From contig AL929603.2 in assembly GCA_000002445.1 (NCBI GenBank), positions 384,001-448,000 of the forward strand: a stretch of DNA of 64,000 nt. The letters are read 5' to 3'. Both the position numbers and the translations under genes were made by a program. Source of the DNA: Trypanosoma brucei (Eukaryota). The notes under the pieces are model-generated. The model was given only the letters and a program-made list of their open reading frames with translations, did no database searches and was not told the DNA's origin. Of the stretch, positions 12,762 through 64,000 are shown one piece after another. Position 1 is the first letter of the stretch; every line of letters starts with the position of its first letter.

Positions 12762-12906
12762 TCGGTTGCCCTATGTCCAAGGGAAACGCTAAATTGTCGT
12801 TTAAAGGATTAGCTTCTAACTTTAGCCAGTGCGGGTAAGGGTTTGTTGGGCATGCCCATGAGAGTCACAGGGGCAAGATATATGGCCTCAATGCCAAGTC
12901 TGAGGT

Positions 12907-13045
12907 GTTTTATTCTCCTTTTTTTTCCCCCCTTCAGCACCTCTTTGAATTTGACATTTTGCGTGTTGTTTTTTTTTCAGTTCGTACTGCCATTATTGTT
13001 CCGACATTTTCCTTTCCCCTCCGTTGCGCCCGTCTTTTCTATTCG
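12907..13045 (+). promoter_or_regulatory. Long polypyrimidine-rich region upstream of the TTLL gene (putative trans-splicing/polyadenylation signal)
   Basis: Runs of T/C with few purines (ttctccttttttttccccccttcagcacctctttgaatttgacattttgcgtgttgtttttttttcag...) lying between the Misato-like stop (12761) and the TTLL ATG (13190). Confidence 0.5.
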
Positions 13046-13189
13046 TTTGGATTATGTGTTATGCAGTATCAAGACTTAACACCTACGCTTGCCTCAGATT
13101 ATCCACAGCGTATCGTGTTTATTTGCATTCATTTTCCCTATTTTCACCTCCGCTACTGTTGTGATAACTTCGCAACTTAAGGTACAGAA

Positions 13190-46702: not shown

Positions 46703-46942
46703 TTGACAAATTCCTGTTTCCTTGGTTTTGTAAAAAAAGAAAAAAACTTTTAAAGTACGATGTGAGGCGCTTCTGACGTTTATCTTCTTTTCGTGGAACA
46801 CAACAATAGACCCTAAAACAATTGAAGCGTCATACAGCAGCAGCCGTTTCAACAGGAAGAAAAAGAGCAGCCCAGCACTTAACGAAGAAAGTTGCGGACA
46901 TCGCTAATTTGTTAACTTATCTTTTTTTTTTTGAAGTCCTCT

Positions 46943-49900
46943 ATGGAGAAACAGCTCTTCGCCATCTTAAGCAGTGGTAGTAGAAAAGGTGGGAGTGCGG
47001 GGGAGAGACGGCAAGCCTTTTCTACGGCATTTGAAGCTTCATTATTTTCCACCACGTACAATGAACCTGCTAGCGCGAAAAAGGGGTCAAAGCGCCCCAA
47101 AGCCACAGACAAGGAAACCCGTGAAGATGAGTGTCTACGGCATGCTGTGAACTCATTTTTTACTATGCCGACACCGGGGCCACTAGAAACATTCTTTTTG
47201 CGAGCTGCAGCGATGCTTCACTCCTACACGCTGCTGCTTCCCGAAAAGGACGGAGAAGCAGGGGAGTTACCCGGTGTTGTAAAAGAGGCAGCTATCGCAT
47301 TTTCCAGCGCAATATTCGCGCCACGGTTGCGTGCTGCGTGCGAAAGCCTTAAAGTCGAGGAAAAATGTTCTGCTTGGGTGTCAACAAATAATTGTGGCGC
47401 GGGTGCAGAGGCATTGAATCATCCTCTTTGGCACTGTTTTTTGTGTATATTTCTACAACAACTTTCAGCACGGGGTGGTAGCATTGCTTCTTGGCGGAAA
47501 TTCATCTCCGATTGCGCAGATGGGTCACATGCATCGGCGCATCCACAAGAAGGTGATTGTGGCCGCGACGAAAGTGAGGAAGACAAGGGAAGTAGCACCA
47601 ACATCACCTGTGAAGATGAGTGCACACGCCTTGCTGTAGCTGCGTGGGGAGCTGTCTCCCTAAAACTACTTGACGCAACCGTAGGACGCACGCGTTACCG
47701 ACGTACGGCTGTACTTTGTCGCTCTGTTTGCCCGCACATCGTGGCACAGGCCCCCGGTACCACATATCAATTACTTGATATCTTGCATGGATTTATGAGC
47801 GCTTGGAGGGAGCGATACAGCAAGGCATCGTCAAATGGAAGAGAAGGAAAGAAGGAAGATGACGACAACACGGAGGATGAAACGGGGGCCACCATCGTGA
47901 CGCTCTACGCGGAGCGTCTTGGTCACATTGTTGGTGACGGTCAAACGCACGCCATGCTTCTTGTCACTGCCATTGGTGCTGTACTCAGTGCAACATATGT
48001 CCTTCCGAAGCGCCAAAGACACGGAACTGTGGGGAGTGGCGATCCCTCGAAGTGGTATCCGCCGCGCTGCGAAGACCCCTCGTTAGGGCTTACGGAAAGC
48101 GAATGGCGTGCAACACACTTTCCCCCTATTGGCCGGTTGTTGCAATGCTTACACATTCATTCACTACTGAGTGTTCACGTTTTTGCATTCTGTATGCAAC
48201 TACGGATCGGCCTATCCTCTTCGCAACACGCGGAAGTCCGACAAAGGTTGGCACTGTGCTTCTACCTGACAGAGGTCTGTCCGGTCCATGTCGCACTCGC
48301 TATTTATTACTATGCCACTTCTCCTCAGAATGCACTCGCGCAAGGCTCTGGAGAGTTGCCAGGGGATGGACTGATGGCGTACACAAAGGCCCTTGACCAC
48401 TTCGTGACTGCGGCTCATAGTGAGTTGCTATTCTCCGTAACAGATTTACCAACCGGGCGTCGACGGCAACGTCACAACACGCGTGCTGCATCCGGTACAA
48501 AGGACGGCGGCCCTGATGATGATGATGATGATGAACCCACAGCAGTAGATGGTGAGTTGAAGGGCCCACGCTTCACAAAGATGGAATTCCCCGTGAGCTG
48601 CCCGACGTGGTCTCAGTACTTGACAGAGGGCACTGCAGGGAAGGCAACAAGTGGGCCAGCAGGACCTGCAACGAAACCAGTTGCAGGCACACTGCAGGTG
48701 GCTCCTTGCCGCTTCGTCGTGGAGCTGTTAGAGATTGGGCTGCCAATGCTTTCTGGGGCCACGATACATCTGTTGCAAAACGAAATGGATATGGACGTGT
48801 GCGCGGTGTCAACCGCAGCCATGCCTGCGGAGTGTGGAAGAGGTGTGGCAGCAATCATAATGGATCATTTTCATTCTATTTTTAGCAGGACAAACCCTAG
48901 CACCGCGTGCGTGGGTCCACTCCCAACAGAACGGCATTGGAATACTTCCATGATTCGTGTGCTTGGGGAGTATCTTCCCCTTCTGGAGGCTGTGTACGGC
49001 TACGTCGCGTCACAGTCGTTTATATCCTTTGTGCTAGAGCAGATCACGAAGGGATGTAAGGATTTCTTGTCAGCAGTTTTGGACCGACATAGCTGTAGCA
49101 CAGACGAAAGTAAACAAAGTGTGCAAGCACTGGCGAGAAAAGCATTAGCCTTGGCAGAGCGTTATCTCATTACAGTTGTCATGCCCTGTATGCGGGTGAT
49201 GTCACCCTCACCAATCGTATACGACCGACTGCAAGCGCTGTTTAATCTCTTCAAAGAGGAAGCCCCGAAAGTAAGTTTTGGTACCAGTCCAGCGGAGTTC
49301 CTGCACACAAGCGTATTCTGCAGCGCATTGCTTGCCACTGGGGTTTCCAACGACACACTTTCTTACCGCGCCCCGCACGAGAGGTTACGGTCAAAAGAAC
49401 TCGATGCACTTTTTACACAGTCACTGAAACGACTCACTCTTGGAAACGTTAACCGCTACCGCTGTATGCTGCGGCCCTCCATATATGCCAACCCGTTGCT
49501 AGCTGCTGAAAAGATGTTTAAGCAAGCTGTGGGGTACAATAACAACTTTTTACTGATTCACACGCAACTGCTGCGCGGCGCTCCTCCAGCTGTAATGACT
49601 CTCATCGCACACATGGGCCTCCACCACATGCAACACTATGCAGAAAATGAAAGATTTGGTACTGCCGATAGCACTCGTGTTTCTTGCATTGCGACGTTCC
49701 TCGCTGTGCTATGGCGGGAAAATCCAAACTCCTTTGACGGTGGGCTGCTTTTGCGGGCGGCAGAACACTCACTAAGACGTGAGGGGCGTGCATCCGTTGT
49801 TTTCGGTCTTGAGTTGCTGCGTGCTATCTTACATGAATTACTAGATACAAAATTGGAGCATGAGGGGAAGTTTACCCCAGAGCAACTGCAGGCGCTCGTC

Positions 49901-52303
49901 GCCCCTCATCGCACGCAGTGGTTTGTAAAGGGTGCGGCAGAGTCGTTTCGATGCGGCCGGTGGGACTCAACGTTTACACCAGTGGTGTTATCTGCTTCGG
50001 AAGCGAATCTGCGGAGTGCGCTGCAGCAACGTTGTATTATTCCGGCGGAGAAGGAAAGCAGTGACGACGATGCCGCTGCGGCCAATTGTGGAGACGGAAC
50101 GACGTGTAACGATAACGAAGAAAAGAAGGAGGAAGAAGTCGCACACAACAACACAACTGAGGATCAACAGTGTGGAGGTAGTTGGTCGTCGGTGGTGGAG
50201 GTCACGTTAGGGCAAGCCATCTTGCTGCACTTGTGTCGGCTACACAGCCGCATATATGCCGTACAGTCGGATCTCTCTGCACCGATGCAGCTTCTATTGC
50301 TTACCTGTGCCCGTGATTATAATGTAATCAATGACCTCCTTCTTTGTATGGAGACTTTGCTGACACAAGGCCCACCGCCAAAAGAGATTTACATGGTTGC
50401 AATGCCACACATTGCGCTTCGCCTCACTGCCCGCTTTGCAGCGAATGGAATAGTACGGCAAAGGCCGGAACAAAAGCATAACGGGCACTTGGCAGCAACT
50501 GAACCTTCTCATTGTGAGGGTGACGCCAATAACCATCATCTATGCGCCACTGTGGAAAGCATTTTCACTGTGATGCCGGCTGAGATTGGTGATCATATGG
50601 GAGACATGGCGTCCCTATGTAATATGGGTGGAAATATCTCCTTTGCACTCCTACAGAAGCTATCGTGCTACACTGCTGCGCACTTTGTATTCGAAGAGTC
50701 TGTGTACGTTGCGGCAGGAAAGGAACTTAACCGTTTTTACGTGATCGGTAACAAAAAGCAGAAGAACAGAGACGACGTACCTAACACTGGTGTGAACGTG
50801 CAGAAGGAATGCTTCCTGTTGTGGATGCAGGAACAGACCCGACAACTAAGGTATGAGAGGGAGTCACACCGCACCTTATATCAGAGGAGTGCCGAATCTT
50901 TGGGACAGCTCCTTGACGAATTGCGAAGCGGTGGTGTACTTACTGAGCCTGTTGAATTTGCGAAAGCCTATCTTTTGCCGCGTGCACTGATTAGTCTGGA
51001 GGACACGTTATTTGTATTTCACTTCCTCAGCTGGATGCTGAACAGCACTGAGGGTGATGAGCGGAACCGGGTCATAGACATTGCGCTTTCGCTCGTAACG
51101 GCGGGTATGAGCTTCTTTGTGGGGCTTACCGATGGGGAGTGCATGCGCTTAGGTGTTCTGCTAAGTTTTCTTCTCACACTTGTAGAAGACTGTGCGATAG
51201 ACCTCTCAGGTAACACGGGAGCTTCTGATAGTGACGAGGGCACCGGTGGTGGTAGCGCTGCGGATGGTGCAGCTTCAACATATCAACCACCTGGTATTAC
51301 CGCTGAGGCACTGAGAGCTCATTTGGATCCCGAAGCGCGGACTTTTCTAAACGTTCTTTCAGCAAGGGTCCAGGAGGAAGACGAGAAGGGGGATGAGGAG
51401 GCCGACAATCAGGTGCAGGAGGGTCCAACAGCTCCTTCCTACAGCAAGGTAGCGGCATATCCTCTGCAGCTGGAAGCGTATCTCTGTCGTGCTTTGGTGC
51501 AGGTGCTTGTGCACCAGTGGGACGTTCAGTACCTTCACCGTAACGCCTTTATTGTTCTTGAACACCTTACAAAAGGTAAGCATCGGTTCCCGTCCACGCT
51601 GTGCGCAGCGGACTGGCTTATTACCGTCGTTTCGCTACATGCAGTGAAAAGCTCGTCGTCATACGCCTCAGCAACGGCAGTGCTCCAAGCGCTCAAGGAG
51701 AACCGCCAACGACGTTGTGAGTTGGTGGAGAGAAGGAAGAGCGCGGGAAACTCGGTGAAGAAGACGAACAGATGGCTGAAGCTACTGAAGGACAGAGAGG
51801 AATTCATGCAACTGTTGTTGGCTCCGGATATGGCAGCAGCTGAAAAGAAGATCTGCGAGAGGGAAGCTGTCATCGCTAGCAGTGTGGCACTGGCCGACGC
51901 TGAGGGTGACGAGGAAGGGGCGGTTGCGGTTGAGGAAGGCGCAGTGAATGATAATGTGGAAAAGAATGAAGAACCAAACGAATCGGAGGGAGCTGAGGAT
52001 TTAGATGATAACAGTGATGCCGCGGACGATGCGCACAGCTCCGTTACCGGAGACAGGAGGGGAAGCAGTGGAGGTGAGTCAAGTTTCGAGGAGGAGGAGG
52101 AGGGGGAGGATGAAGAAAGGAGTCCATCAGCATCTGCATCTCATGGAGACCCAAACCATGGCTCTATAACGGATGGCAAGGGCCGCAACTCAACTTCTCC
52201 TCCACCGGAAGAGCCTGAAGCAAATGAGGTAGCAAATGCGAAATCACGAAAGAGACCCCGAGAGGGCAGCGTGGAGCGCACCGGTGGCGAAGAGGAGACG
52301 TGA
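46943..52303 (+). CDS. Very large conserved hypothetical protein (about 1786 aa) with acidic C-terminal tail
   Basis: Continuous 5.4-kb ORF with coding composition. No recognisable catalytic motif. Internal poly-Asp (DDDDDDE) and a C-terminal Glu/Asp-rich region. The track start is a TTG at 46931; the first ATG is 46943. Confidence 0.55.
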   Translation: MEKQLFAILSSGSRKGGSAGERRQAFSTAFEASLFSTTYNEPASAKKGSKRPKATDKETREDECLRHAVNSFFTMPTPGPLETFFLRAAAMLHSYTLLLPEKDGEAGELPGVVKEAAIAFSSAIFAPRLRAACESLKVEEKCSAWVSTNNCGAGAEALNHPLWHCFLCIFLQQLSARGGSIASWRKFISDCADGSHASAHPQEGDCGRDESEEDKGSSTNITCEDECTRLAVAAWGAVSLKLLDATVGRTRYRRTAVLCRSVCPHIVAQAPGTTYQLLDILHGFMSAWRERYSKASSNGREGKKEDDDNTEDETGATIVTLYAERLGHIVGDGQTHAMLLVTAIGAVLSATYVLPKRQRHGTVGSGDPSKWYPPRCEDPSLGLTESEWRATHFPPIGRLLQCLHIHSLLSVHVFAFCMQLRIGLSSSQHAEVRQRLALCFYLTEVCPVHVALAIYYYATSPQNALAQGSGELPGDGLMAYTKALDHFVTAAHSELLFSVTDLPTGRRRQRHNTRAASGTKDGGPDDDDDDEPTAVDGELKGPRFTKMEFPVSCPTWSQYLTEGTAGKATSGPAGPATKPVAGTLQVAPCRFVVELLEIGLPMLSGATIHLLQNEMDMDVCAVSTAAMPAECGRGVAAIIMDHFHSIFSRTNPSTACVGPLPTERHWNTSMIRVLGEYLPLLEAVYGYVASQSFISFVLEQITKGCKDFLSAVLDRHSCSTDESKQSVQALARKALALAERYLITVVMPCMRVMSPSPIVYDRLQALFNLFKEEAPKVSFGTSPAEFLHTSVFCSALLATGVSNDTLSYRAPHERLRSKELDALFTQSLKRLTLGNVNRYRCMLRPSIYANPLLAAEKMFKQAVGYNNNFLLIHTQLLRGAPPAVMTLIAHMGLHHMQHYAENERFGTADSTRVSCIATFLAVLWRENPNSFDGGLLLRAAEHSLRREGRASVVFGLELLRAILHELLDTKLEHEGKFTPEQLQALVAPHRTQWFVKGAAESFRCGRWDSTFTPVVLSASEANLRSALQQRCIIPAEKESSDDDAAAANCGDGTTCNDNEEKKEEEVAHNNTTEDQQCGGSWSSVVEVTLGQAILLHLCRLHSRIYAVQSDLSAPMQLLLLTCARDYNVINDLLLCMETLLTQGPPPKEIYMVAMPHIALRLTARFAANGIVRQRPEQKHNGHLAATEPSHCEGDANNHHLCATVESIFTVMPAEIGDHMGDMASLCNMGGNISFALLQKLSCYTAAHFVFEESVYVAAGKELNRFYVIGNKKQKNRDDVPNTGVNVQKECFLLWMQEQTRQLRYERESHRTLYQRSAESLGQLLDELRSGGVLTEPVEFAKAYLLPRALISLEDTLFVFHFLSWMLNSTEGDERNRVIDIALSLVTAGMSFFVGLTDGECMRLGVLLSFLLTLVEDCAIDLSGNTGASDSDEGTGGGSAADGAASTYQPPGITAEALRAHLDPEARTFLNVLSARVQEEDEKGDEEADNQVQEGPTAPSYSKVAAYPLQLEAYLCRALVQVLVHQWDVQYLHRNAFIVLEHLTKGKHRFPSTLCAADWLITVVSLHAVKSSSSYASATAVLQALKENRQRRCELVERRKSAGNSVKKTNRWLKLLKDREEFMQLLLAPDMAAAEKKICEREAVIASSVALADAEGDEEGAVAVEEGAVNDNVEKNEEPNESEGAEDLDDNSDAADDAHSSVTGDRRGSSGGESSFEEEEEGEDEERSPSASASHGDPNHGSITDGKGRNSTSPPPEEPEANEVANAKSRKRPREGSVERTGGEEET

Positions 52304-54708: not shown

Positions 54709-56790
54709 ATGTTGCGCTACACCAGCTGCGCAGCTAATATGCTCTATGCACGCGGTGCGCTACGCGTCTTGGCTGGCGAAGAGAGTCTAATGTCGCATAA
54801 ACTGCTCGTCATCACGGCTCCACTGCTCAGCGCGCGATGCGTTCGCATGGCGTCAACTGGAGCCCCCGGCGCTGCCGAAAGTTTGGATAACAGTAACGTC
54901 GGTAGCGGCAGTAACATGCAATGCCGTGAGGCCTCCATCCGCCGGCTAGCGGTCGTGCGTCCCGATTTGGTTGGCGAATGGGTACCCGAGTTGAACGATA
55001 GTGACGTCTCCTCGGTTCTCTGTACGAGTACGATCGATGCGTGGTGGCGCTGTAATGCGTGCGGCACAAACTATCGGGCCACAGTGAAAGACCGTGCAAC
55101 CATTGAAAAGGGGTGCCCCGAGTGTGCGAGCACCCGTACGCTTAGGCAAAACCATGTTTCCTCTGACAGTTGTACCGGCACGGCCGCAGTCAGTGAAAGA
55201 ACTAACGAAACAGCGAAGGGATCCCTCAAGGAAACACATCCCGCTATCGCCGATCGTTGGGATTACGAGAGGAACGGCCTACTGCTCCCAACAGATGTTG
55301 ACGCCGCAAGTGAACTGAATGTTTGGTGGAAGCCGGCACCGGGTAGACCCTCACGTGAGCGATCGTTTCGCCGTCCAGTGTTCGCCTTCGTTGAGACACC
55401 CTACAGCGAAGAGGAGCAGCTGGAGGCCCAAACCGCTTTGGAGTTAGATGTATTGCAGCAAGTTCGGCAGGCATCCAAGATTACCACCGCTCGCGAAAAT
55501 CACGCTCTACCTGCAGCCGCGCGAATGCTGGATGACATTGTTTTTCGGAATAACAGCAGCAGTTCTTCTGAGCACACTTCCGCGACAACAAACATTGCGG
55601 CGTCGAGTGAACCGATGATTACTGAAGGAGCACAAGGGAACCGCTGTAATCTCGATGGGGAGGATCTGTACAAAGCTGTCGAGTTGTGGGAACGGAAACA
55701 TAAGACTAAGGCTGGATTGGAAACCCGACCGATGTTCTACTCCACAGAGAATTGTGACGGTGCTGCAATAGCGCGCGGGCAAGTGCTCACCGCTTATCAC
55801 CGCTTCGTCTCCGACCGTAAGCCTAAAGTGTGTACTGCACATGACGGCAATGAAAATGACCAACTCCCTATCCCTTCCGCCATTGAAGACCCCGACTGGT
55901 TGCAACACTTCACGCTGCGTGTAGATGATGTTGCCATCGGTCACAGCGCCTCCTCTGCACGTCTTGTTCTTCCCGACAATGTGGCGTTTGTGTCTGCGGT
56001 GGATCACGAGAAGCATACGACAGTCGCTAGTAATGGTGCTTCGAGGAAGAGCCGAATGGCCACACTGCCACCACCACCAGAGGAGTACGGAAGTGAGGTG
56101 CGCACAACGTTTGCTGTTCAAAAACGGTCGTATCCCCGCAGACCGCCCCAACCACCCGCACGGGAGGATGACGTGACGGAGGCAGTGCCGAAGGCTACGG
56201 AAGCTGCAGGCGAAAGAGCAATTGGATCCTTTCCACGTCACACGGGATCAGGCGCTGCACGGAACAATGGTCTACCCGAGGCCTCGTTCGCAGTAGTAAG
56301 TCTTTCGGGGGCACAAAGTCTCGCGCGGGAATACAACAGTGGTACAACGGACAATATAGACGCGCTTTTCGATGCCAAGGGTGAAGAACTTCAGAGACAA
56401 ACACTTCTTGGTCCCACCGCAATTAGTTCCATGACTGAGGAGCAGGTGCGAGCGCTGCAATACAACCGTGGGTCCCCTCGCCCTCGTCGCACAGGTCGCT
56501 TCAGGCTTCGACCTCCAGTTGAGACTGATAGTGGTTCTACTGAAGTTGTTAGGAAGGGGGATGTCCTAACTTCCACGTTTGGTTCAGGGGTGCTATCAGC
56601 AGCAGATGCGCCCACGCAAGATGAAGATAAAGACCTCAAGATTATTCAGGCGCCTGGTGCGCCCCGGAAAGTGTCGCGGCCCAAGAGAAAAAAGGCAGAG
56701 GAAGCAGCTCCTGGGGATGATTATGGTAATAATGCAGTTCGCGCTGCTGCTGGTGATGCGTCTAAAGATAAAGTAGCAGCTCCAGCTTAA
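54709..56790 (+). CDS. Hypothetical protein with predicted mitochondrial presequence and zinc-ribbon motif
   Basis: The N-terminus MLRYTSCAANMLYARGALRV...LLSARCVRMAS is presequence-like. WWRCNACGTNYRATVKDRATIEKGCPECAS has C-x2-C...C-x2-C ribbon spacing. The rest is low-complexity and Ser/Ala-rich. Confidence 0.5.
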   Translation: MLRYTSCAANMLYARGALRVLAGEESLMSHKLLVITAPLLSARCVRMASTGAPGAAESLDNSNVGSGSNMQCREASIRRLAVVRPDLVGEWVPELNDSDVSSVLCTSTIDAWWRCNACGTNYRATVKDRATIEKGCPECASTRTLRQNHVSSDSCTGTAAVSERTNETAKGSLKETHPAIADRWDYERNGLLLPTDVDAASELNVWWKPAPGRPSRERSFRRPVFAFVETPYSEEEQLEAQTALELDVLQQVRQASKITTARENHALPAAARMLDDIVFRNNSSSSSEHTSATTNIAASSEPMITEGAQGNRCNLDGEDLYKAVELWERKHKTKAGLETRPMFYSTENCDGAAIARGQVLTAYHRFVSDRKPKVCTAHDGNENDQLPIPSAIEDPDWLQHFTLRVDDVAIGHSASSARLVLPDNVAFVSAVDHEKHTTVASNGASRKSRMATLPPPPEEYGSEVRTTFAVQKRSYPRRPPQPPAREDDVTEAVPKATEAAGERAIGSFPRHTGSGAARNNGLPEASFAVVSLSGAQSLAREYNSGTTDNIDALFDAKGEELQRQTLLGPTAISSMTEEQVRALQYNRGSPRPRRTGRFRLRPPVETDSGSTEVVRKGDVLTSTFGSGVLSAADAPTQDEDKDLKIIQAPGAPRKVSRPKRKKAEEAAPGDDYGNNAVRAAAGDASKDKVAAPA

Positions 56791-57388
56791 GAGCACTTTG
56801 AATATTTGTTTGTGTCTGCTCGTACGGAGACGTACTGTGAGTAAAGAAGAAGGAAATCAACGCGAGGATCTGAGGAGGGAAGGAAAGAGGGGCGAAGTGA
56901 AGTGAACCCACACCCGCATCTTCCGCTGTTTGTCTGGTGGCCACAACTTCCTTTCACCGTTTCTTGGTTGCCTGTGGAACGTGGCATCAATGAACTTCGT
57001 GTGCTTTTTAAGTAGAAACCCCTCTGCGACTACTGTCTGTTCTTCTCTTCCTCACACCCGTCTCTATTTCCCTTTTCCTCTTTCTTTTGCTTCCCCAAAG
57101 CAACCAACCTGGAAGTCATTACGGGGGATCTTGTACTATTTTCATTATTTGTTTTTATTGCTTTTGCTACTGCCGTTGGTGGTTGCACAACGTTTGTACC
57201 AAATATACATATAAAGGGGAGGGAAAGAAAGTCGAAATAACGATAATAATAACAGACGCAACAAAGTTGGAAAAAAGACTTGGAGCATTGACGGGAGGGG
57301 GTAGTGGGTGTGAGTATTTTCAGCAAGGTAAAGATTTTGAAACGCCAAGAGTTGCATACACACAGACAAACAGAGGAAAGAGAAGACA

Positions 57389-60300
57389 ATGTCGTATTAT
57401 AATAATCAACAACAGTCGCTCCCGTTTCAACCACTTCTTTCATCCAGAAGCTTCAGAACGGTACGCAGCCATGTAACGCGAACAAGTAACCTTCACTGTA
57501 GCACTGCAAGGGACGATGTTGATGCCACCTGCAGCGATACCACCATGAGTTTACACCATAGTGATACGAAAAGTTGTACCGATTTAGATTGTGCCACGAT
57601 GACCTCAAGGAGGAGACAACGATTGCCTTGCTTTGTTTGGAGCAAGAAAACTATTCCTCAACACCCCCAAGACTGGTCCAAGTCGAGACCAGATAGCTTC
57701 CGACATGATGATACCAGCCTTCTTAAGCAAGAGGGAGACTCGTTGCCCAGTGCACGAAGGGATGTACAACTACACTGCCAGGGACACCCAACACGGCCGC
57801 TCGTTTCCGCGCGGTCTGGGGGGAAAACGCGAACAAGGACTGTTTATAATAACAGTACCGTTACATGTACAACGTGCGCCACAGGTAGGAAGTTATCATA
57901 CCCACTATCAGTGGAAGCACATAATGATCACGCATTGTGCACGTGCGTCCCATGGCTCAGGTCTCTTGAGGCACTTCATCACCACGACGTAACCCCTGAA
58001 AAGGGCTGGGAATGCATATCCATTGAACGGGACGCGTTCAACCGCTCAACAGTTAGCTCCATTTCACCACCGTTATCACCGTATCTACCAGCGAAAACAC
58101 AGGGGAAAAAGGGACAAATGACAAATTTACTCTCACCACGAAGGTTGTACGCCGCCGTCAATAGCGCTAAAACCAAAAGCGACAGAGACGTATTTGCAGT
58201 TAGTGCCCGACCACATAAAACCAGTATGGGAAGCAGTGTAAACACAGCACGGCAGTATACAAAATATGTTAAAACAGCAAGAGAAGCATCACGAAAACCA
58301 CTTACTGTGCGCCATATCAATGACACAAATCCAATATATACCTTCTCAAATGAAAACAAGCAGAGGAATAAAGAAAATGCACTTCAGGATACGAAGAAGC
58401 CTGAAACAAAACCAGAAATAGAAATCTCCACAGCAACAACGGACGGACCTACGTACAACGAAAAAATAACAAAATGCAGAATGGAATCGCCTGCACTACG
58501 AAAAACAAAAAAAGAAGCTACGACCGAAAACCAAACTCAATGCACAAAACAGAAGGCACCAGCGACAAAAAATACATCTTCCATTCAAAAAAAATACGAA
58601 CTCAGTACCACACAAAAACAACAACTGGAAATAAAAAAAAAAGAAAAAAAGAAAAAAAAGAGTAGTATCAACACTAAAAACCCAATCACACAACAACAAA
58701 ACACAAAGCAACGTACATCGCTTACGCAGAACCTACAAAACAATTCAACATCAGAAAAGGAATTTAACCACATTCGAATAAACTCAACCAAAACCATCAT
58801 GGACGAGGCACCATGCGCCCCGGAGGACTTCCTAGCGGAGGAATCCCAGCAACACACTGCGAGGAGTGAAGCTGACATTGATGAAGAGCAGCAGCCGCAG
58901 GAGCAGCAAACCGAAGCCATCATGGACGAGGCACCATGCGCCCCGGAGGACTTCATAGCGGAGGAATCCCAGCAACACACTGCGAGGAGTGAAGCTGACA
59001 TTGATGAAGAGCAGCAGCCGCAGGAGCAGCAAACCGAAACCATCATGGACGAGGCACCATGCGCCCCGGAGGACTTCCTAGCGGAGGAATCCCAGCAACA
59101 CACTGCGAGGAGTGAAGCTGACATTGATGAAGAGCAGCAGCCGCAGGAGCAGCAAACCGAAACCATCATGGACGAGGCACCATGCGCCCCGGAGGACTTC
59201 CTAGCGGAGGAATCCCAGCAACACACTGCGAGGAGTGAAGCTGACATTGATGAAGAGCAGCAGCCGCAGGAGCAGCAAACCGAAACCATCATGGACGAGG
59301 CACCATGCGCCCCGGAGGACTTCCTAGCGGAGGAATCCCAGCAACACACTGCGAGGAGTGAAGCTGACATTGATGAAGAGCAGCAGCCGCAGGAGCAGCA
59401 AACCGAAACCATCATGGACGAGGCACCATGCGCCCCGGAGGACTTCCTAGCGGAGGAATCCCAGCAACACACTGCGAGGAGTGAAGCTGACATTGATGAA
59501 GAGCAGCAGCCGCAGGAGCAGCAAACCGAAACCATCATGGACGAGGCACCATGCGCCCCGGAGGACTTCCTAGCGGAGGAATCCCAGCAACACACTGCGA
59601 GGAGTGAAGCTGACATTGATGAAGAGCAGCAGCCGCAGGAGCAGCAAACCGAAGCCATCATGGACGAGGCACCATGCGCCCCGGAGGACTTCCTAGCGGA
59701 GGAATCCCAGCAACACACTGCGAGGAGTGAAGCTGACATTGATGAAGAGCAGCAGCCGCAGGAGCAGCAAACCGAAGCCATCATGGACGAGGCATCATGC
59801 GCCCCGGAGGACTTCATAGCGGAGGAATCCCAGCAACACACTGCGAGGAGTGAAGCTGACATTGATGAAGAGCAGCAGCCGCAGGAGCAGCAAACCGAAG
59901 CCATCATGGACGAGGCACCATGCGCCCCGGAGGACTTCCTAGCGGAGGAATCCCAGCAACACACTGCGAGGAGTGAAGCTGACATTGATGAAGAGCAGCA
60001 GCCGCAGGAGCAGCAAACCGAAGCCATCATGGACGAGGCACCATGCGCCCCGGAGGACTTCCTAGCGGAGGAATCCCAGCAACACACTGCGAGGAGTGAA
60101 GCTGACATTGATGAAGAGCAGCAGCCGCAGGAGCAGCAAACCGAAACCATCATGGACGAGGCACCATGCGCCCCGGAGGACTTCCTAGCGGAGGAATCCC
60201 AGCAACACACTGCGAGGAGTGAAGCTGACATTGATGAAGAGCAGCAGCCGCAGGAGCAGCAAACCGAAACCATCATGGACGAGGCACCATGCGCCCCGGA

Positions 60301-63300
60301 GGACTTCCTAGCGGAGGAATCCCAGCAACACACTGCGAGGAGTGAAGCTGACATTGATGAAGAGCAGCAGCCGCAGGAGCAGCAAACCGAAACCATCATG
60401 GACGAGGCACCATGCGCCCCGGAGGACTTCCTAGCGGAGGAATCCCAGCAACACACTGCGAGGAGTGAAGCTGACATTGATGAAGAGCAGCAGCCGCAGG
60501 AGCAGCAAACCGAAACCATCATGGACGAGGCACCATGCGCTCCGGAGGACTTCCTAGCGGAGGAATCCCAGCAACACACTGCGAGGAGTGAAGCTGACAT
60601 TGATGAAGAGCAGCAGCCGCAGGAGCAGCAAACCGAAACCATCATGGACGAGGCACCATGCGCCCCGGAGGACTTCCTAGCGGAGGAATCCCAGCAACAC
60701 ACTGCGAGGAGTGAAGCTGACATTGATGAAGAGCAGCAGCCGCAGGAGCAGCAAACCGAAACCATCATGGACGAGGCACCATGCGCTCCGGAGGACTTCC
60801 TAGCGGAGGAATCCCAGCAACACACTGCGAGGAGTGAAGCTGACATTGATGAAGAGCAGCAGCCGCAGGAGCAGCAAACCGAAACCATCATGGACGAGGC
60901 ACCATGCGCTCCGGAGGACTTCCTAGCGGAGGAATCCCAGCAACACACTGCGAGGAGTGAAGCTGACATTGATGAAGAGCAGCAGCCGCAGGAGCAGCAA
61001 ACCGAAACCATCATGGACGAGGCACCATGCGCTCCGGAGGACTTCATAGCGGAGGAATCCCAGCAACACACTGCGAGGAGTGAAGCTGACATTGATGAAG
61101 AGCAGCAGCCGCAGGAGCAGCAAACCGAAACCATCATGGACGAGGCACCATGCGCTCCGGAGGACTTCCTAGCGGAGGAATCCCAGCAACACACTGCGAG
61201 GAGTGAAGCTGACATTGATGAAGAGCAGCAGCCGCAGGAGCAGCAAACCGAAACCATCATGGACGAGGCACCATGCGCTCCGGAGGACTTCCTAGCGGAG
61301 GAATCCCAGCAACACACTGCGAGGAGTGAAGCTGACATTGACGAAGAGCAGCAGCCGCAGGAGCAGCAAACCGAAACCATCATGGACGAGGCACCATGCG
61401 CCCCGGAGGACTTCCTAGCGGAGGAATCCCAGCAACACACTGCGAGGAGTGAAGCTGACATTGATGAAGAGCAGCAGCCGCAGGAGCAGCAAACCGAAAC
61501 CATCATGGACGAGGCACCATGCGCCCCGGAGGACTTCCTAGCGGAGGAATCCCAGCAACACACTGCGAGGAGTGAAGCTGACATTGATGAAGAGCAGCAG
61601 CCGCAGGAGCAGCAAACCGAAACCATCATGGACGAGGCACCATGCGCCCCGGAGGACTTCCTAGCGGAGGAATCCCAGCAACACACTGCGAGGAGTGAAG
61701 CTGACATTGATGAAGAGCAGCAGCCGCAGGAGCAGCAAACCGAAACCATCATGGACGAGGCACCATGCGCTCCGGAGGACTTCCTAGCGGAGGAATCCCA
61801 GCAACACACTGCGAGGAGTGAAGCTGACATTGATGAAGAGCAGCAGCCGCAGGAGCAGCAAACCGAAACCATCATGGACGAGGCACCATGCGCTCCGGAG
61901 GACTTCCTAGCGGAGGAATCCCAGCAACACACTGCGAGGAGTGAAGCTGACATTGATGAAGAGCAGCAGCCGCAGGAGCAGCAAACCGAAACCATCATGG
62001 ACGAGGCACCATGCGCCCCGGAGGACTTCCTAGCGGAGGAATCCCAGCAACACACTGCGAGGAGTGAAGCTGACATTGATGAAGAGCAGCAGCCGCAGGA
62101 GCAGCAAACCGAAACCATCATGGACGAGGCACCATGCGCCCCGGAGGACTTCCTAGCGGAGGAATCCCAGCAACACACTGCGAGGAGTGAAGCTGACATT
62201 GATGAAGAGCAGCAGCCGCAGGAGCAGCAAACCGAAACCATCATGGACGAGGCACCATGCGCCCCGGAGGACTTCCTAGCGGAGGAATCCCAGCAACACA
62301 CTGCGAGGAGTGAAGCTGACATTGATGAAGAGCAGCAGCCGCAGGAGCAGCAAACCGAAACCATCATGGACGAGGCACCATGCGCCCCGGAGGACTTCCT
62401 AGCGGAGGAATCCCAGCAACACACTGCGAGGAGTGAAGCTGACATTGATGAAGAGCAGCAGCCGCAGGAGCAGCAAACCGAAGCCATCATGGACGAGGCA
62501 CCATGCGCCCCGGAGGACTTCATAGCGGAGGAATCCCAGCAACACACTGCGAGGAGTGAAGCTGACATTGATGAAGAGCAGCAGCCGCAGGAGCAGCAAA
62601 CCGAAACCATCATGGACGAGGCACCATGCGCCCCGGAGGACTTCCTAGCGGAGGAATCCCAGCAACACACTGCGAGGAGTGAAGCTGACATTGATGAAGA
62701 GCAGCAGCCGCAGGAGCAGCAAACCGAAACCATCATGGACGAGGCACCATGCGCCCCGGAGGACTTCCTAGCGGAGGAATCCCAGCAACACACTGCGAGA
62801 AGTGAAGCTGACATTGATGAAGAGCAGCAGCCGCAGGAGCAGCAAACCGAAACCATCATGGACGAGGCACCATGCGCCCCGGAGGACTTCCTAGCGGAGG
62901 AATCCCAGCAACACACTGCGAGAAGTGAAGCTGACATTGATGAAGAGCAGCAGCCGCAGGAGCAGCAAACCGAAACCATCATGGACGAGGCACCATGCGC
63001 CCCGGAGGACTTCCTAGCGGAGGAATCCCAGCAACACACTGCGAGGAGTGAAGCTGACATTGATGAAGAGCAGCAGCCGCAGGAGCAGCAAACCGAAACC
63101 ATCATGGACGAGGCACCATGCGCCCCGGAGGACTTCCTAGCGGAGGAATCCCAGCAACACACTGCGAGGAGTGAAGCTGACATTGATGAAGAGCAGCAGC
63201 CGCAGGAGCAGCAAACCGAAACCATCATGGACGAGGCACCATGCGCCCCGGAGGACTTCCTAGCGGAGGAATCCCAGCAACACACTGCGAGAAGTGAAGC

Positions 63301-64000
63301 TGACATTGATGAAGAGCAGCAGCCGCAGGAGCAGCAAACCGAAACCATCATGGACGAGGCACCATGCGCCCCGGAGGACTTCCTAGCGGAGGAATCCCAG
63401 CAACACACTGCGAGGAGTGAAGCTGACATTGATGAAGAGCAGCAGCCGCAGGAGCAGCAAACCGAAACCATCATGGACGAGGCACCATGCGCCCCGGAGG
63501 ACTTCCTAGCGGAGGAATCCCAGCAACACACTGCGAGGAGTGAAGCTGACATTGATGAAGAGCAGCAGCCGCAGGAGCAGCAAACCGAAACCATCATGGA
63601 CGAGGCACCATGCGCCCCGGAGGACTTCCTAGCGGAGGAATCCCAGCAACACACTGCGAGGAGTGAAGCTGACATTGATGAAGAGCAGCAGCCGCAGGAG
63701 CAGCAAACCGAAACCATCATGGACGAGGCACCATGCGCCCCGGAGGACTTCCTAGCGGAGGAATCCCAGCAACACACTGCGAGGAGTGAAGCTGACATTG
63801 ATGAAGAGCAGCAGCCGCAGGAGCAGCAAACCGAAGCCATCATGGACGAGGCACCATGCGCCCCGGAGGACTTCCTAGCGGAGGAATCCCAGCAACACAC
63901 TGCGAGGAGTGAAGCTGACATTGATGAAGAGCAGCAGCCGCAGGAGCAGCAAACCGAAGCCATCATGGACGAGGCACCATGCGCCCCGGAGGACTTCCTA
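57389..64000 (+). CDS. Large repetitive protein (3'-partial): roughly 470-aa unique N-terminal region followed by at least 42 tandem 41-aa acidic repeats (consensus TE[AT]IMDEAPCAPEDF[LI]AEESQQHTARSEADIDEEQQPQEQQ)
   Basis: Frame 2 is open from the ATG at 57389 to the window end with no stop. I hand-translated 57389-58800 and it runs in frame into the repeats. Every repeat unit keeps the frame open. Amino-acid variants between units are conservative in this frame (A/T, L/I, P/S) but non-conservative in the antisense frame (R/M, G/D). The gene is co-directional with the whole cluster. The ORF track misses it because it has no stop within the window. Confidence 0.7.
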   Translation, partial: MSYYNNQQQSLPFQPLLSSRSFRTVRSHVTRTSNLHCSTARDDVDATCSDTTMSLHHSDTKSCTDLDCATMTSRRRQRLPCFVWSKKTIPQHPQDWSKSRPDSFRHDDTSLLKQEGDSLPSARRDVQLHCQGHPTRPLVSARSGGKTRTRTVYNNSTVTCTTCATGRKLSYPLSVEAHNDHALCTCVPWLRSLEALHHHDVTPEKGWECISIERDAFNRSTVSSISPPLSPYLPAKTQGKKGQMTNLLSPRRLYAAVNSAKTKSDRDVFAVSARPHKTSMGSSVNTARQYTKYVKTAREASRKPLTVRHINDTNPIYTFSNENKQRNKENALQDTKKPETKPEIEISTATTDGPTYNEKITKCRMESPALRKTKKEATTENQTQCTKQKAPATKNTSSIQKKYELSTTQKQQLEIKKKEKKKKKSSINTKNPITQQQNTKQRTSLTQNLQNNSTSEKEFNHIRINSTKTIMDEAPCAPEDFLAEESQQHTARSEADIDEEQQPQEQQTEAIMDEAPCAPEDFIAEESQQHTARSEADIDEEQQPQEQQTETIMDEAPCAPEDFLAEESQQHTARSEADIDEEQQPQEQQTETIMDEAPCAPEDFLAEESQQHTARSEADIDEEQQPQEQQTETIMDEAPCAPEDFLAEESQQHTARSEADIDEEQQPQEQQTETIMDEAPCAPEDFLAEESQQHTARSEADIDEEQQPQEQQTETIMDEAPCAPEDFLAEESQQHTARSEADIDEEQQPQEQQTEAIMDEAPCAPEDFLAEESQQHTARSEADIDEEQQPQEQQTEAIMDEASCAPEDFIAEESQQHTARSEADIDEEQQPQEQQTEAIMDEAPCAPEDFLAEESQQHTARSEADIDEEQQPQEQQTEAIMDEAPCAPEDFLAEESQQHTARSEADIDEEQQPQEQQTETIMDEAPCAPEDFLAEESQQHTARSEADIDEEQQPQEQQTETIMDEAPCAPEDFLAEESQQHTARSEADIDEEQQPQEQQTETIMDEAPCAPEDFLAEESQQHTARSEADIDEEQQPQEQQTETIMDEAPCAPEDFLAEESQQHTARSEADIDEEQQPQEQQTETIMDEAPCAPEDFLAEESQQHTARSEADIDEEQQPQEQQTETIMDEAPCAPEDFLAEESQQHTARSEADIDEEQQPQEQQTETIMDEAPCAPEDFLAEESQQHTARSEADIDEEQQPQEQQTETIMDEAPCAPEDFIAEESQQHTARSEADIDEEQQPQEQQTETIMDEAPCAPEDFLAEESQQHTARSEADIDEEQQPQEQQTETIMDEAPCAPEDFLAEESQQHTARSEADIDEEQQPQEQQTETIMDEAPCAPEDFLAEESQQHTARSEADIDEEQQPQEQQTETIMDEAPCAPEDFLAEESQQHTARSEADIDEEQQPQEQQTETIMDEAPCAPEDFLAEESQQHTARSEADIDEEQQPQEQQTETIMDEAPCAPEDFLAEESQQHTARSEADIDEEQQPQEQQTETIMDEAPCAPEDFLAEESQQHTARSEADIDEEQQPQEQQTETIMDEAPCAPEDFLAEESQQHTARSEADIDEEQQPQEQQTETIMDEAPCAPEDFLAEESQQHTARSEADIDEEQQPQEQQTETIMDEAPCAPEDFLAEESQQHTARSEADIDEEQQPQEQQTETIMDEAPCAPEDFLAEESQQHTARSEADIDEEQQPQEQQTEAIMDEAPCAPEDFIAEESQQHTARSEADIDEEQQPQEQQTETIMDEAPCAPEDFLAEESQQHTARSEADIDEEQQPQEQQTETIMDEAPCAPEDFLAEESQQHTARSEADIDEEQQPQEQQTETIMDEAPCAPEDFLAEESQQHTARSEADIDEEQQPQEQQTETIMDEAPCAPEDFLAEESQQHTARSEADIDEEQQPQEQQTETIMDEAPCAPEDFLAEESQQHTARSEADIDEEQQPQEQQTETIMDEAPCAPEDFLAEESQQHTARSEADIDEEQQPQEQQTETIMDEAPCAPEDFLAEESQQHTARSEADIDEEQQPQEQQTETIMDEAPCAPEDFLAEESQQHTARSEADIDEEQQPQEQQTETIMDEAPCAPEDFLAEESQQHTARSEADIDEEQQPQEQQTETIMDEAPCAPEDFLAEESQQHTARSEADIDEEQQPQEQQTEAIMDEAPCAPEDFLAEESQQHTARSEADIDEEQQPQEQQTEAIMDEAPCAPEDFL
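58780..64000. repeat. Tandem array of 123-bp units, at least 42 copies, above 97% identical, truncated by the window end
   Basis: The ATCATGGACGAG landmark recurs at 58796, 58919, 59042 and onward, a period of 123 bp. Only about six polymorphic sites distinguish units, and the variants are shared by adjacent units in blocks. Confidence 0.95.

What the first reader, a model, noticed from the sequence alone, without database searches (positions are those of the whole stretch)
57389..64000. Giant tandem-repeat protein gene read on the wrong strand by the ORF track
A 123-bp unit repeated at least 42 times (over 5.2 kb, array truncated by the window) is fused in frame to a unique N-terminal region of about 470 aa that starts at the ATG at 57389. 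The repeat is acidic and Glu/Gln-rich (IMDEAPCAPEDFLAEESQQHTARSEADIDEEQQPQEQQTE). It resembles the repetitive antigen and cytoskeleton-associated proteins known in trypanosomatids, but I cannot match it to a named family. The ORF track shows only the antisense Cys/Ser-rich frame (58585..63966), which is very likely an artefact. The sense frame is the one co-directional with the polycistron, it connects to a real N-terminal domain, and its inter-repeat substitutions are conservative. Near-identical units imply concerted evolution. True copy number and the C-terminus lie outside the window and may be collapsed in assemblies.
Basis: seen in the sequence. Interest (0 to 1): 0.7.

Follow-up and report, generated by a model that had tools for sequence, protein, structure and literature searches.

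The report
Known giant trypanosome repeat-protein gene Tb927.1.1740

Summary
A 123-bp unit is repeated 42.4 times (58786-64000, 99% identical) and is fused in frame to a 466-codon unique region that starts at ATG 57389.

The gene is Tb927.1.1740 / Tb427.01.1740 on T. brucei chromosome 1. It is published as a 7,154-aa hypothetical protein with 132 perfect repeats of LAEESQQHTARSEADIDE. It is also the third-longest ORF in T. brucei (21,465 nt) and encodes a 22.2-kb mRNA used as a single-molecule FISH reporter under the name "FUTSCH".

Antisense FISH probes to both unique ends and to the repeats detect the plus-sense mRNA. The published 288-nt 5' UTR matches exactly the first AG (57099-57100) after the polypyrimidine tract.

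The "wrong strand" call is a listing artefact: ORFs that run off the window are not listed.

New here:
- N-terminal residues 1-340 are under purifying selection (omega 0.06 against T. b. gambiense).
- The A-rich linker evolves about neutrally, at roughly seven times the local silent rate.
- The gambiense label "T. brucei spp.-specific" is wrong. Syntenic orthologues with the same architecture occur in T. vivax and T. cruzi. Sequence relatives occur in six further Trypanosoma species.
- No MAP1B/Futsch domain was found.

Both the N-terminus and the repeats are predicted to be disordered. Interest is low.

The parts
57040..57100 (+). Polypyrimidine tracts (57040-57053, 57067-57088) followed by the first AG (57099-57100): the spliced-leader acceptor site of the gene
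   Evidence: One search finds the tracts and the first downstream AG. The resulting 5' UTR of 288 nt equals the published value (PMC5397161).
57101..57388 (+). 5' UTR, 288 nt, with no ATG
   Evidence: There are no differences from T. b. gambiense in this stretch.
57389..58408 (+). Conserved, basic N-terminal region, residues 1-340 (pI 9.7, about +22 charge), under purifying selection
   Evidence: dS 0.040, dN 0.0025, omega 0.06 against gambiense. Nine of 11 differences are at codon position 3. AlphaFold2 mean pLDDT is 30.8, so no confident fold.
57611..57712 (+). Family motif RRQRLPCFVWSKKTIPQHPQDWSKSRPDSFRHDD (residues 75-108), shared across the genus
   Evidence: Pairwise and tblastn matches to T. 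vivax and T. cruzi; alignment A4. A profile built only from stercorarian species scores the T. brucei N-terminus at 20.9 bits, E 8.6e-9; none of 500 shuffles reached that score.
58409..58785 (+). A-rich, Lys/Thr/Gln/Asn-rich basic linker, residues 341-466 (pI 10, about +15); fast-evolving but kept open
   Evidence: GC 0.34-0.41 and AT skew up to 0.66. Divergence from gambiense is 6.1%, with omega 0.93 and no indels. Only 13 of 3,000 shuffles were stop-free. Orthologues have linkers of similar composition.
58786..64000 (+). Array of 42.4 copies of a 123-bp (41-aa) unit, about -10.5 charge per unit; continues beyond the window (estimated total about 158 units; see the full report)
   Evidence: Published as 7,154 aa with 132 perfect repeats (PMC2254594) and an ORF of 21,465 nt (PMC5397161).
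58585..63966 (-). Antisense Cys/Ser-rich ORF (1,793 aa): a compositional by-product, not a gene
   Evidence: It lies opposite to a polycistron that is otherwise entirely + strand. Its only unique sequence is a 201-bp tail past the array boundary, ending at 58585. Antisense frames are likewise open in the T. vivax and T. cruzi arrays. FISH detects the + sense mRNA.
54709..56790 (+). Upstream neighbour Tb927.1.1730 (DUF4379 treble-clef zinc finger protein), used as the synteny anchor
   Evidence: Pfam PF14311, E 1.5e-21. Orthologues across Trypanosoma were used to fetch the syntenic loci.

Best explanation
**Identity (about 0.97).** The region is the 5' UTR, the start codon, the unique N-terminal coding part and the first 42 or so repeat units of Tb927.1.1740 / Tb427.01.1740 on T. 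brucei chromosome 1. It is transcribed with the rest of the plus-strand polycistron. It is trans-spliced at the AG at 57099-57100 and translated from the first AUG (57389) into a protein of about 7,150 residues.

**Architecture (shown).**
- A basic N-terminal head of about 340 residues, which carries the one motif conserved across the genus.
- A basic, Lys/Thr/Gln/Asn-rich, fast-evolving linker of 126 residues.
- An array of 41-aa units, estimated at about 158, each carrying about -10.5 charge and kept nearly identical by concerted evolution.
- A conserved C-terminal tail that lies outside the window. In gambiense it ends ...DSDDEDAAESYHGWWTFLSVPFFKTHRR.

**Mechanism (inferred, about 0.3).** I think the protein is a giant, intrinsically disordered polyanionic spacer or brush. 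The conserved termini would act as the anchoring or interaction modules: the basic head would bind an acidic surface such as microtubules, and the hydrophobic, basic (Cys-rich in other species) tail would bind a membrane or a partner. The repeat array would supply length and negative charge rather than a specific fold. This resembles the projection domains of MAP1B/Futsch or neurofilament side-arms in the way it would work, without being related to them.
For: **Identity**
- The peptide LAEESQQHTARSEADIDE is published for Tb927.1.1740 (PMC2254594).
- The gambiense chromosome 1 orthologue is 95% identical.
- The published 288-nt 5' UTR is reproduced exactly by the sequence.

**Strand and translation**
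- Antisense FISH probes detect the mRNA, and cycloheximide stabilises it.
- Omega is 0.06 over residues 1-340.
- None of 5,000 shuffles was stop-free.

**Family**
- T. vivax has a 1,938-aa gene between the DUF4379 gene and the Tb927.1.1750 orthologue, with a 424-aa N-terminus, 34 repeats of 38 aa and a 213-aa C-terminus.
- The T. cruzi orthologue has 39-aa repeats and is followed by the 1750-like, glutaredoxin and PIN genes, as in T. brucei.
- An exhaustive profile search found 8 hits, all from Trypanosoma.
- Profiles built only from stercorarian species recognise the T. brucei N-terminus and the gambiense and T. vivax C-termini.

**Disorder and charge**
- AlphaFold2 pLDDT is 30.8 for the N-terminus and 45.3 for five repeats, with no secondary structure in the repeats.
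- pI is 9.7 and 10 for the head and linker, and 4.05 for the repeat unit.

**Concerted evolution:**
Against: **Function is untested.** I found no localisation, proteomic or knockout evidence:
- The TrypTag supplementary files that are held do not mention the gene.
- Only four papers name it, all as an mRNA reporter or a repeat statistic.

**Expression is low.** There are about 4 mRNA molecules per cell, of which about 1 is intact, and the half-life is under 15 min. The protein may therefore be scarce.

**The disorder call is weak.** The AlphaFold2 runs used one and four sequences, so low confidence does not prove disorder.

**Polyanionic character may not be conserved.**
- Stercorarian repeat units are Ala-rich and much less acidic.
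- The T. brucei C-terminal tail lacks the Cys pair seen in other species.
Confidence: 0.85

Rival explanations
1. The real gene is the antisense Cys/Ser-rich ORF (58585-63966, minus strand), and the plus-frame ORF is the by-product.
For: It is the only ORF shown by the listing. It is open across the whole array. The repeat variants are equally "silent" in that frame.
Against: - Every other ORF of at least 200 aa in the 64 kb is on the + strand, apart from one that overlaps a + gene.
- The antisense ORF has no unique domain beyond a 201-bp tail.
- Antisense FISH probes detect a + sense 22-kb mRNA.
- The + frame joins N- and C-terminal regions conserved across Trypanosoma.
- Antisense frames are open in the unrelated-sequence arrays of T. 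vivax and T. cruzi too, which points to a composition effect.
Confidence: 0.01
2. The 466-codon "N-terminal domain" is not translated. It would be a long A-rich leader, with translation starting at a Met inside the repeats (each unit contains IMDEA).
For: - The last 377 nt before the array look like a UTR: GC 0.34, strong A excess.
- That stretch evolves at omega of about 0.93.
- AlphaFold2 finds no fold.
Against: - ATG 57389 is the first AUG of the mapped mRNA.
- Residues 1-340 have omega 0.06, with 9 of 11 differences at third positions.
- The motif PQDWSKSRPDSFRHDD is conserved in seven other species.
- None of 5,000 shuffles kept the frame open. Even the linker alone stays open in only 13 of 3,000 shuffles, and it has no indels against gambiense despite its poly-A runs.
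Confidence: 0.03
3. The gene is expressed, but the huge array has no selected function. On this view it is a neutrally expanded minisatellite inside a small conserved protein. Its practical importance would be as a repetitive B-cell antigen or decoy, or as nothing at all.
For: - Copy number and unit sequence turn over quickly: 41, 38 and 39-aa units with little similarity between lineages.
- mRNA abundance is very low and the half-life is short.
- The gene was listed among the most repetitive pathogen proteins in a survey aimed at antigens (PMC2254594).
- No functional data were found.
Against: - An ORF of more than 21 kb with no stop or frameshift is costly to keep.
- Arrays with a period of 38-41 aa are retained at the same place in the protein in every species that has the gene.
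- The long-read T. vivax assembly also has at least 34 units.
- The protein has no signal peptide or transmembrane segment, so antigenicity would be incidental.
Confidence: 0.15
4. It is a true homologue of Drosophila Futsch / vertebrate MAP1B, that is, a microtubule-associated protein by descent, as the database name "microtubule-associated protein FUTSCH, putative" implies.
For: - The name is used in PMC6326799.
- The giant size, central repeats and basic terminus are superficially alike.
- Other giant T. brucei repeat proteins (GB4, and the MARPs from my own knowledge) are cytoskeletal (for GB4).
Against: - No Pfam family was found for the N-terminus, the repeats or any orthologue, including MAP1B_neuraxin.
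- No PDB sequence relative was found.
- Word-indexed searches and the exhaustive HMMER search returned only Trypanosoma proteins.
Confidence: 0.03

Closest known systems
Tb927.1.1740 / Tb427.01.1740 (T. brucei; "hypothetical protein", also labelled "microtubule-associated protein FUTSCH, putative"); gambiense copy labelled "T. brucei spp.-specific protein"
   Same: It is the same gene. The repeat peptide is identical to the published one. It sits at the same chromosome 1 locus and is 95% identical to the gambiense protein. The 288-nt 5' UTR is the same.
   Different: Nothing differs in kind. The window holds only about 27% of the array and lacks the C-terminus. The gambiense model is truncated by an assembly gap.
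Syntenic Trypanosoma orthologues: T. vivax 1,938-aa gene (SOPI01000403.1), T. cruzi XP_817198.1, T. grayi DQ04_02971040, T. melophagium LSM04_007185, T. rangeli TraAM80_03301, T. theileri TM35_000142030, T. conorhini Tco025E_01093
   Same: - The same genomic neighbourhood, shown directly for T. vivax and T. cruzi.
- A unique N-terminus of about 420-470 aa. The Q[DE]WSKS[RK]PxSFHRD motif is clear in the stercorarian species and T. brucei but degenerate in T. vivax, whose N-terminus does not score against the stercorarian profile.
- An Asn/Thr/Lys-rich linker, then repeats of 38-41 aa.
- In the species whose models reach it, a C-terminus with an acidic DSDD-like patch, a hydrophobic patch and a basic tail.
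   Different: - The unit sequence is barely alignable between the salivarian and stercorarian groups.
- Stercorarian units are Ala-rich and only mildly acidic.
- Stercorarian species have a kinase gene inserted upstream.
- T. brucei has much the largest reported array and lacks the C-terminal Cys pair.
Drosophila Futsch / vertebrate MAP1B
   Same: A giant protein with a long central repeat region flanked by unique termini. A disordered, charged projection domain is a plausible functional analogy.
   Different: No detectable sequence or domain similarity. Microtubule binding is untested. The name appears to be an annotation transfer without support.
Giant repetitive cytoskeletal proteins of T. 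brucei (GB4; MARP-1/2 and FAZ proteins, from my own knowledge)
   Same: A very long ORF with a unique 5' part followed by a near-perfect tandem array. GB4 has 37 repeats of 600 nt and localises to the posterior cortical cytoskeleton (PMC5397161).
   Different: - No sequence similarity was found.
- The repeats here are strongly acidic, whereas microtubule-binding repeats are usually basic.
- The localisation of this protein is unknown.

Membership tests
Tb927.1.1740 orthologue group (Trypanosoma giant repeat protein) | Lies directly downstream of Tb927.1.1730 (DUF4379) in the same polycistron, upstream of Tb927.1.1750, glutaredoxin and PIN genes | tested here: met
   The upstream side is seen in the window. 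The downstream side is seen in the 99%-identical gambiense locus. The same order holds in T. vivax and, with an extra kinase gene, in T. cruzi.
Tb927.1.1740 orthologue group (Trypanosoma giant repeat protein) | Published repeat peptide LAEESQQHTARSEADIDE and a 288-nt 5' UTR | tested here: met
   The peptide is present in the units and matches PMC2254594. The distance from the AG at 57099-57100 to ATG 57389 is 288 nt, matching PMC5397161.
Tb927.1.1740 orthologue group (Trypanosoma giant repeat protein) | N-terminal motif ...W...Q[DE]WSKS[RK]PxSFHRD[DE] | tested here: met
   Residues 75-108. The stercorarian-only profile scores 20.9 bits, E 8.6e-9, and none of 500 shuffles reached that.
Tb927.1.1740 orthologue group (Trypanosoma giant repeat protein) | Conserved C-terminal tail (acidic DSDD-like patch, hydrophobic patch, basic end) | not testable with these tools
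   The C-terminus lies outside the window. In the gambiense locus it is present: 16.5 bits against the stercorarian C-terminal profile, with none of 500 shuffles reaching that score.
Futsch / MAP1B microtubule-associated proteins | MAP1B-type N- and C-terminal homology domains or MAP1B_neuraxin repeats | tested here: not met
   No Pfam family matched the N-terminus plus repeats (E up to 0.01) or the orthologues (E up to 0.1-1). There were no PDB relatives. The exhaustive HMMER search found only Trypanosoma proteins.
Futsch / MAP1B microtubule-associated proteins | Binds microtubules | not testable with these tools
   This needs co-sedimentation or localisation experiments. No such data turned up in the literature searches.
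Trypanosomatid tandem-repeat B-cell antigens (a functional class) | Long, near-identical tandem amino-acid repeats | tested here: met
   It is ranked the most repetitive protein in the pathogen table of PMC2254594.
Trypanosomatid tandem-repeat B-cell antigens (a functional class) | Recognised by sera from infected hosts | not testable with these tools
   No serological data were found. Searching for the repeat peptides returned only PMC2254594.

The most novel reading that the evidence does not exclude
The most novel reading my evidence allows has three parts.

- Tb927.1.1740 is the extreme member of a so-far undescribed, genus-wide Trypanosoma family of giant repeat proteins. The family is defined by conserved terminal motifs and a fixed repeat period of about 40 aa, with the unit sequence replaced lineage by lineage.
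- Both current labels, "T. brucei spp.-specific" and "FUTSCH", are therefore wrong.
- The boundary of the array is a local mutation hotspot. Silent divergence there is about seven times that of neighbouring genes and rises towards the repeats, which suggests recombination-associated mutagenesis spilling into the flanking coding sequence.
Probability: 0.4. Interest if true: 0.35.

Novelty: already known. Interest (0 to 1): 0.2.

Why it matters
For the genome scan, this flag resolves to an annotated, published gene and needs no further attention as a discovery.

It has modest value in four respects:
- It shows that an ORF listing which omits ORFs running off a window will present the antisense frame of a truncated repeat gene as the only ORF.
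- It corrects two database labels. The gene is not specific to T. brucei, and nothing here supports homology with Futsch.
- It defines conserved N- and C-terminal motifs. These give a rational basis for tagging or truncation experiments on a protein of about 7,150 residues whose function is still unknown, even though its mRNA is a widely used reporter.
- The raised substitution rate next to the array is a small, testable observation about minisatellite-flank mutagenesis in a trypanosome.

Tried and rejected
- **Repeat variants as a frame test.** Rejected. The silent sites are third codon positions in both open frames.
- **Domain and structure searches.** Pfam on the N-terminus, the repeats and the orthologues gave nothing real. 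The hits to RsmB-F, Ribosomal_L34 and others have no individually significant stretch and come from summing over repeats. The PDB sequence search found nothing.
- **Structure prediction.** AlphaFold2 gave pLDDT 30.8 for the N-terminus and 45.3 for five repeats. That is too low to justify a fold search, so none was run.
- **Word-indexed protein search.** It found only the gambiense protein, and with a profile only partial T. cruzi proteins. It missed the TREU927 protein and most orthologues. The exhaustive HMMER search was needed to find them.
- **T. vivax N-terminus.** It does not score against the stercorarian profile (-23 bits). Its orthology rests on both-flank synteny, the C-terminal profile hit, the architecture and a weak pairwise match to T. 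brucei (E 5e-4).
- **Repeat-unit homology between salivarian and stercorarian groups.** Only 3-21% identity, so I make no claim.
- **Localisation.** The TrypTag supplementary files have no entry for the gene.
- **Orthologue repeat peptides in the literature.** No paper holds them.
- **gambiense C-terminus of P0001.** Rejected as an artefact of a low-quality read tail before an N gap.
- **Weak Tho2 hit in a neighbouring gene.** Checked against PDB sequences with no result, and left there.

Full report

Yes. Tandem Repeats Finder reports a single array at 58786-64000, with period 123, 42.4 copies, 99% matches and no indels. Translating 57389-64000 on the plus strand gives 2,204 codons with no stop. 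These are 466 unique residues followed by 41-aa units of the form TETIMDEAPCAPEDFLAEESQQHTARSEADIDEEQQPQEQQ.

Only two of the six frames are open through the unit: this one, and one minus frame that reads CCSCGCCSSS.... The unique part is not open by chance. None of 5,000 dinucleotide-preserving shuffles of 57389-58785 lacked a stop (mean 20.9 stops), and the other two plus frames contain 11 and 32 stops.

The ORF listing shows only the minus ORF 58585..63966. By its own rule the tool leaves out ORFs that run off the source. The "wrong strand" in the title is therefore a listing artefact, not an annotation error.

**2. What is it?**

The window is a one-directional block of housekeeping genes. 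Every ORF of at least 200 aa is on the plus strand, apart from two antisense shadows.

A protein search with the N-terminus plus two repeats returned one hit. It is an 831-aa "T. brucei spp.-specific protein" of Trypanosoma brucei gambiense DAL972, 95% identical and starting at the same Met. It is encoded on chromosome 1 (FN554964.1) in the same gene order.

A full-text search for the repeat peptide and for candidate gene identifiers settled the identity:
- Fankhauser et al. 2007 (PMC2254594) list [quoted passage not shown] at the top of their table of the most repetitive pathogen proteins.
- Kramer 2017 (PMC5397161) describes Tb427.01.1740 as the third-longest ORF of T. brucei. It is 21,465 nt long, has a repetitive interior and unique ends, and has UTRs of 288 nt (5') and 444 nt (3'). 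She used it as a dual-colour single-molecule FISH reporter.
- Goos et al. [quoted passage not shown]

**3. Strand, start and translation**

[quoted passage not shown] They detect a cytoplasmic and nuclear mRNA, so the transcript is plus-sense.
- In the window, two polypyrimidine tracts (57040-57053 and 57067-57088) are followed by the first AG at 57099-57100. From 57101 to the ATG at 57389 is exactly 288 nt, the published 5' UTR length, and that leader contains no ATG.
- Cycloheximide stabilises the mRNA and puromycin does not, which fits an mRNA engaged by ribosomes.

Comparison with the gambiense DNA gives independent evidence that the N-terminus is coding. In codons 1-340 there are 11 differences. 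Nine of them are at third positions (binomial p = 0.0014) and only two change the protein. This gives dS 0.040, dN 0.0025 and omega 0.06.

The silent variants among the repeat units fall on third positions in both open frames, so they do not distinguish the frames.

**4. Anatomy**

| Part | Window coordinates | Properties |
|---|---|---|
| N-terminal head, residues 1-340 | 57389-58408 | Basic (pI 9.7, about +22), Ser/Thr/Arg-rich |
| Linker, residues 341-466 | 58409-58785 | Encoded by A-rich DNA (GC 0.34-0.41); Lys/Thr/Gln/Asn-rich, pI 10, about +15 |
| Repeat array | 58786-64000 and beyond | Each unit has pI 4.05 and about -10.5 charge; the 42 units in the window carry about -500 |

From the published length, the array should hold about (7154 - 466 - about 200)/41, or roughly 158 units. 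The window therefore shows about a quarter of it.

Structure prediction gave no confident model:
- AlphaFold2 finds no confident fold in the N-terminus. Mean pLDDT is 30.8 with a four-sequence alignment, and only a weak helix at residues 397-425.
- It finds no secondary structure in five repeats (pLDDT 45.3, single sequence).
- With such shallow input this is suggestive of disorder, not proof.

There is no Pfam family and no PDB sequence relative.

**5. Concerted evolution and assembly collapse**

All eight readable gambiense units share the same four or five differences from the window consensus. Two of them convert Leu (CTA) to Met (ATG). The ATA (Ile) variant, which occurs in five window units, is the intermediate step.

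Variants within the window cluster in neighbouring units.

The gambiense array stops after eight units in a degraded sequence, followed by an N at L001 12529. The C-terminus of the 831-aa model is therefore an artefact. The real C-terminal coding part is the unannotated ORF that ends at L001 13143 (...ESYHGWWTFLSVPFFKTHRR). The published 444-nt 3' UTR and the next gene's splice signal fit behind it.

The T. cruzi G assembly also breaks its array with an N gap, and several orthologues are annotated as "partial".

**6. The gene is not specific to T. brucei**

I used the upstream neighbour (Tb927.1.1730, DUF4379) to fetch the syntenic loci.

*T. vivax.* The slot between the DUF4379 gene and the orthologue of Tb927.1.1750 (E 4e-19) holds a 1,938-aa gene with the same plan:
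- a 424-aa N-terminus ending in an Asn/Lys/Thr-rich linker;
- 34 repeats of 38 aa (114 bp, 99% identical), acidic and Gln-rich;
- a 213-aa C-terminus.

*T. cruzi.* A large kinase gene intervenes. The next gene then carries PQDWSNSRPDTFHRDE, to be compared with PQDWSKSRPDSFRHDD in T. brucei. It has 39-aa repeats and is followed by the 1750-like, glutaredoxin and PIN genes, in the same order as T. brucei.

*Wider search.* An exhaustive profile search of 1.84 billion representative proteins found eight hits. All are from Trypanosoma and all are labelled hypothetical: T. b. gambiense, two T. cruzi entries, T. rangeli, T. grayi, T. theileri, T. conorhini and T. melophagium. No Leishmania protein was found.

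*Independent profiles.* Profiles built only from stercorarian species gave these scores:

| Profile | Target | Bits | E-value (single comparison) | Shuffles reaching that score |
|---|---|---|---|---|
| Stercorarian N-terminus | T. brucei N-terminus | 20.9 | 8.6e-9 | 0 of 500 |
| Stercorarian N-terminus | T. vivax N-terminus | -23.1 | 1.0 | 452 of 500 |
| Stercorarian C-terminus | T. vivax C-terminus | 22.6 | 3.8e-9 | 0 of 500 |
| Stercorarian C-terminus | gambiense C-terminus | 16.5 | 2.9e-7 | 0 of 500 |

The T. vivax N-terminus matches only T. brucei, and weakly (E 5e-4).

The repeat period is conserved (41, 38 and 39 aa), but the unit sequence is not.

**7. An unexplained side observation**

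Divergence from gambiense rises towards the array.

| Stretch | Divergence | dS | omega |
|---|---|---|---|
| 57040-57844 | none | - | - |
| 57845-58408 | 2.0% | 0.074 | 0.03 |
| 58409-58785 | 6.1%, no indels | 0.068 | 0.93 |
| Repeat unit | 4-5 fixed differences per 123 bp | - | - |
| Neighbouring genes | 0.55-0.77% | about 0.01 | 0.6-0.7 |
| Intergenic DNA | 1.2-1.5% | - | - |

The silent-site excess is significant (Fisher p = 8e-6). Relaxed constraint explains the omega of about 1 in the linker, but not the raised dS. The candidates are recombination-associated mutagenesis at the array boundary, or old allelic lineages. I could not reach other T. brucei strains to decide between them.

**8. 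How it most likely works**

*Shown:* a plus-sense, trans-spliced, low-abundance, short-lived 22-kb mRNA. There are about 4 molecules per cell and the half-life is under 15 min. It has an ORF whose N-terminal 340 codons are under purifying selection.

*Inferred, about 0.3:* the protein is a giant disordered polyanionic spacer or brush. The conserved basic head and the conserved hydrophobic-basic C-terminal tail would attach it to cellular structures, and the array would supply length and charge. This parallels MAP projection domains in how it works, without homology to them.

*Against:* there are no localisation or proteomic data. Stercorarian units are far less acidic, so strong negative charge may be a salivarian speciality.

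*Rivals:*

| Rival | Probability |
|---|---|
| Neutral expansion, or merely an incidental antigen | 0.15 |
| The leader is not translated | 0.03 |
| True Futsch/MAP1B homologue | 0.03 |
| The antisense ORF is the gene | 0.01 |

**9. Verdict**

The increments from this work are the genus-wide orthology with its terminal motifs, the lack of support for the "FUTSCH" and "T. brucei spp.-specific" labels, and the raised divergence at the array boundary. Interest is 0.2.

Noticed in passing
window 57845-58947: Divergence from T. b. gambiense rises towards the repeat array. dS is about 0.07, against about 0.01 in neighbouring genes, and total divergence reaches 6.1% in 58409-58785 with no indels. By contrast, 57040-57844 is identical in the two genomes. 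This could reflect mutagenesis at the array boundary or old alleles.
   Followed up: partly
window 46931-52303: A 1,790-aa ORF has a weak, sub-threshold Pfam Tho2 match (E 0.0013; 18.4 bits against a cut-off of 23.1). It is conserved in synteny in T. vivax, T. cruzi and T. theileri as proteins of 1,822-1,929 aa. It has no PDB sequence relative. Trypanosomes are reported to lack homologues of most proteins of the nuclear mRNA export-control systems of yeast and humans (PMC6326799 abstract).
   Followed up: partly
L004 12656-17932; L005 12814-16458 and 19588 onwards: In T. cruzi and T. theileri, one or two large protein-kinase genes lie between the DUF4379 gene and the 1740-like gene. That slot has no kinase gene in T. 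brucei or T. vivax. This is a local synteny difference between stercorarian and salivarian trypanosomes.
   Followed up: partly
L001 12380-13266 (T. b. gambiense FN554964.1): The gambiense gene model ends in a degraded read tail before an N gap at L001 12529. The true C-terminal coding part (about 12631-13143) is unannotated, and a probably spurious 139-aa minus-strand gene call (12847-13266) overlaps it.
   Followed up: yes
L002 14162-18094 (-); L006 3322-4879 (-); window 58585-63966 (-): Long antisense ORFs run through the repeat arrays of T. brucei, T. vivax and T. cruzi, even though the unit sequences differ. This points to a codon-composition effect that would mislead any six-frame ORF listing.
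   Followed up: partly
(search behaviour): The word-indexed protein search did not return the 7,154-aa TREU927 protein or most orthologues. The profile query did not even return the gambiense protein again. The exhaustive HMMER search did find the orthologues. A single hit from the indexed search should therefore not be read as lineage specificity.
   Followed up: yes
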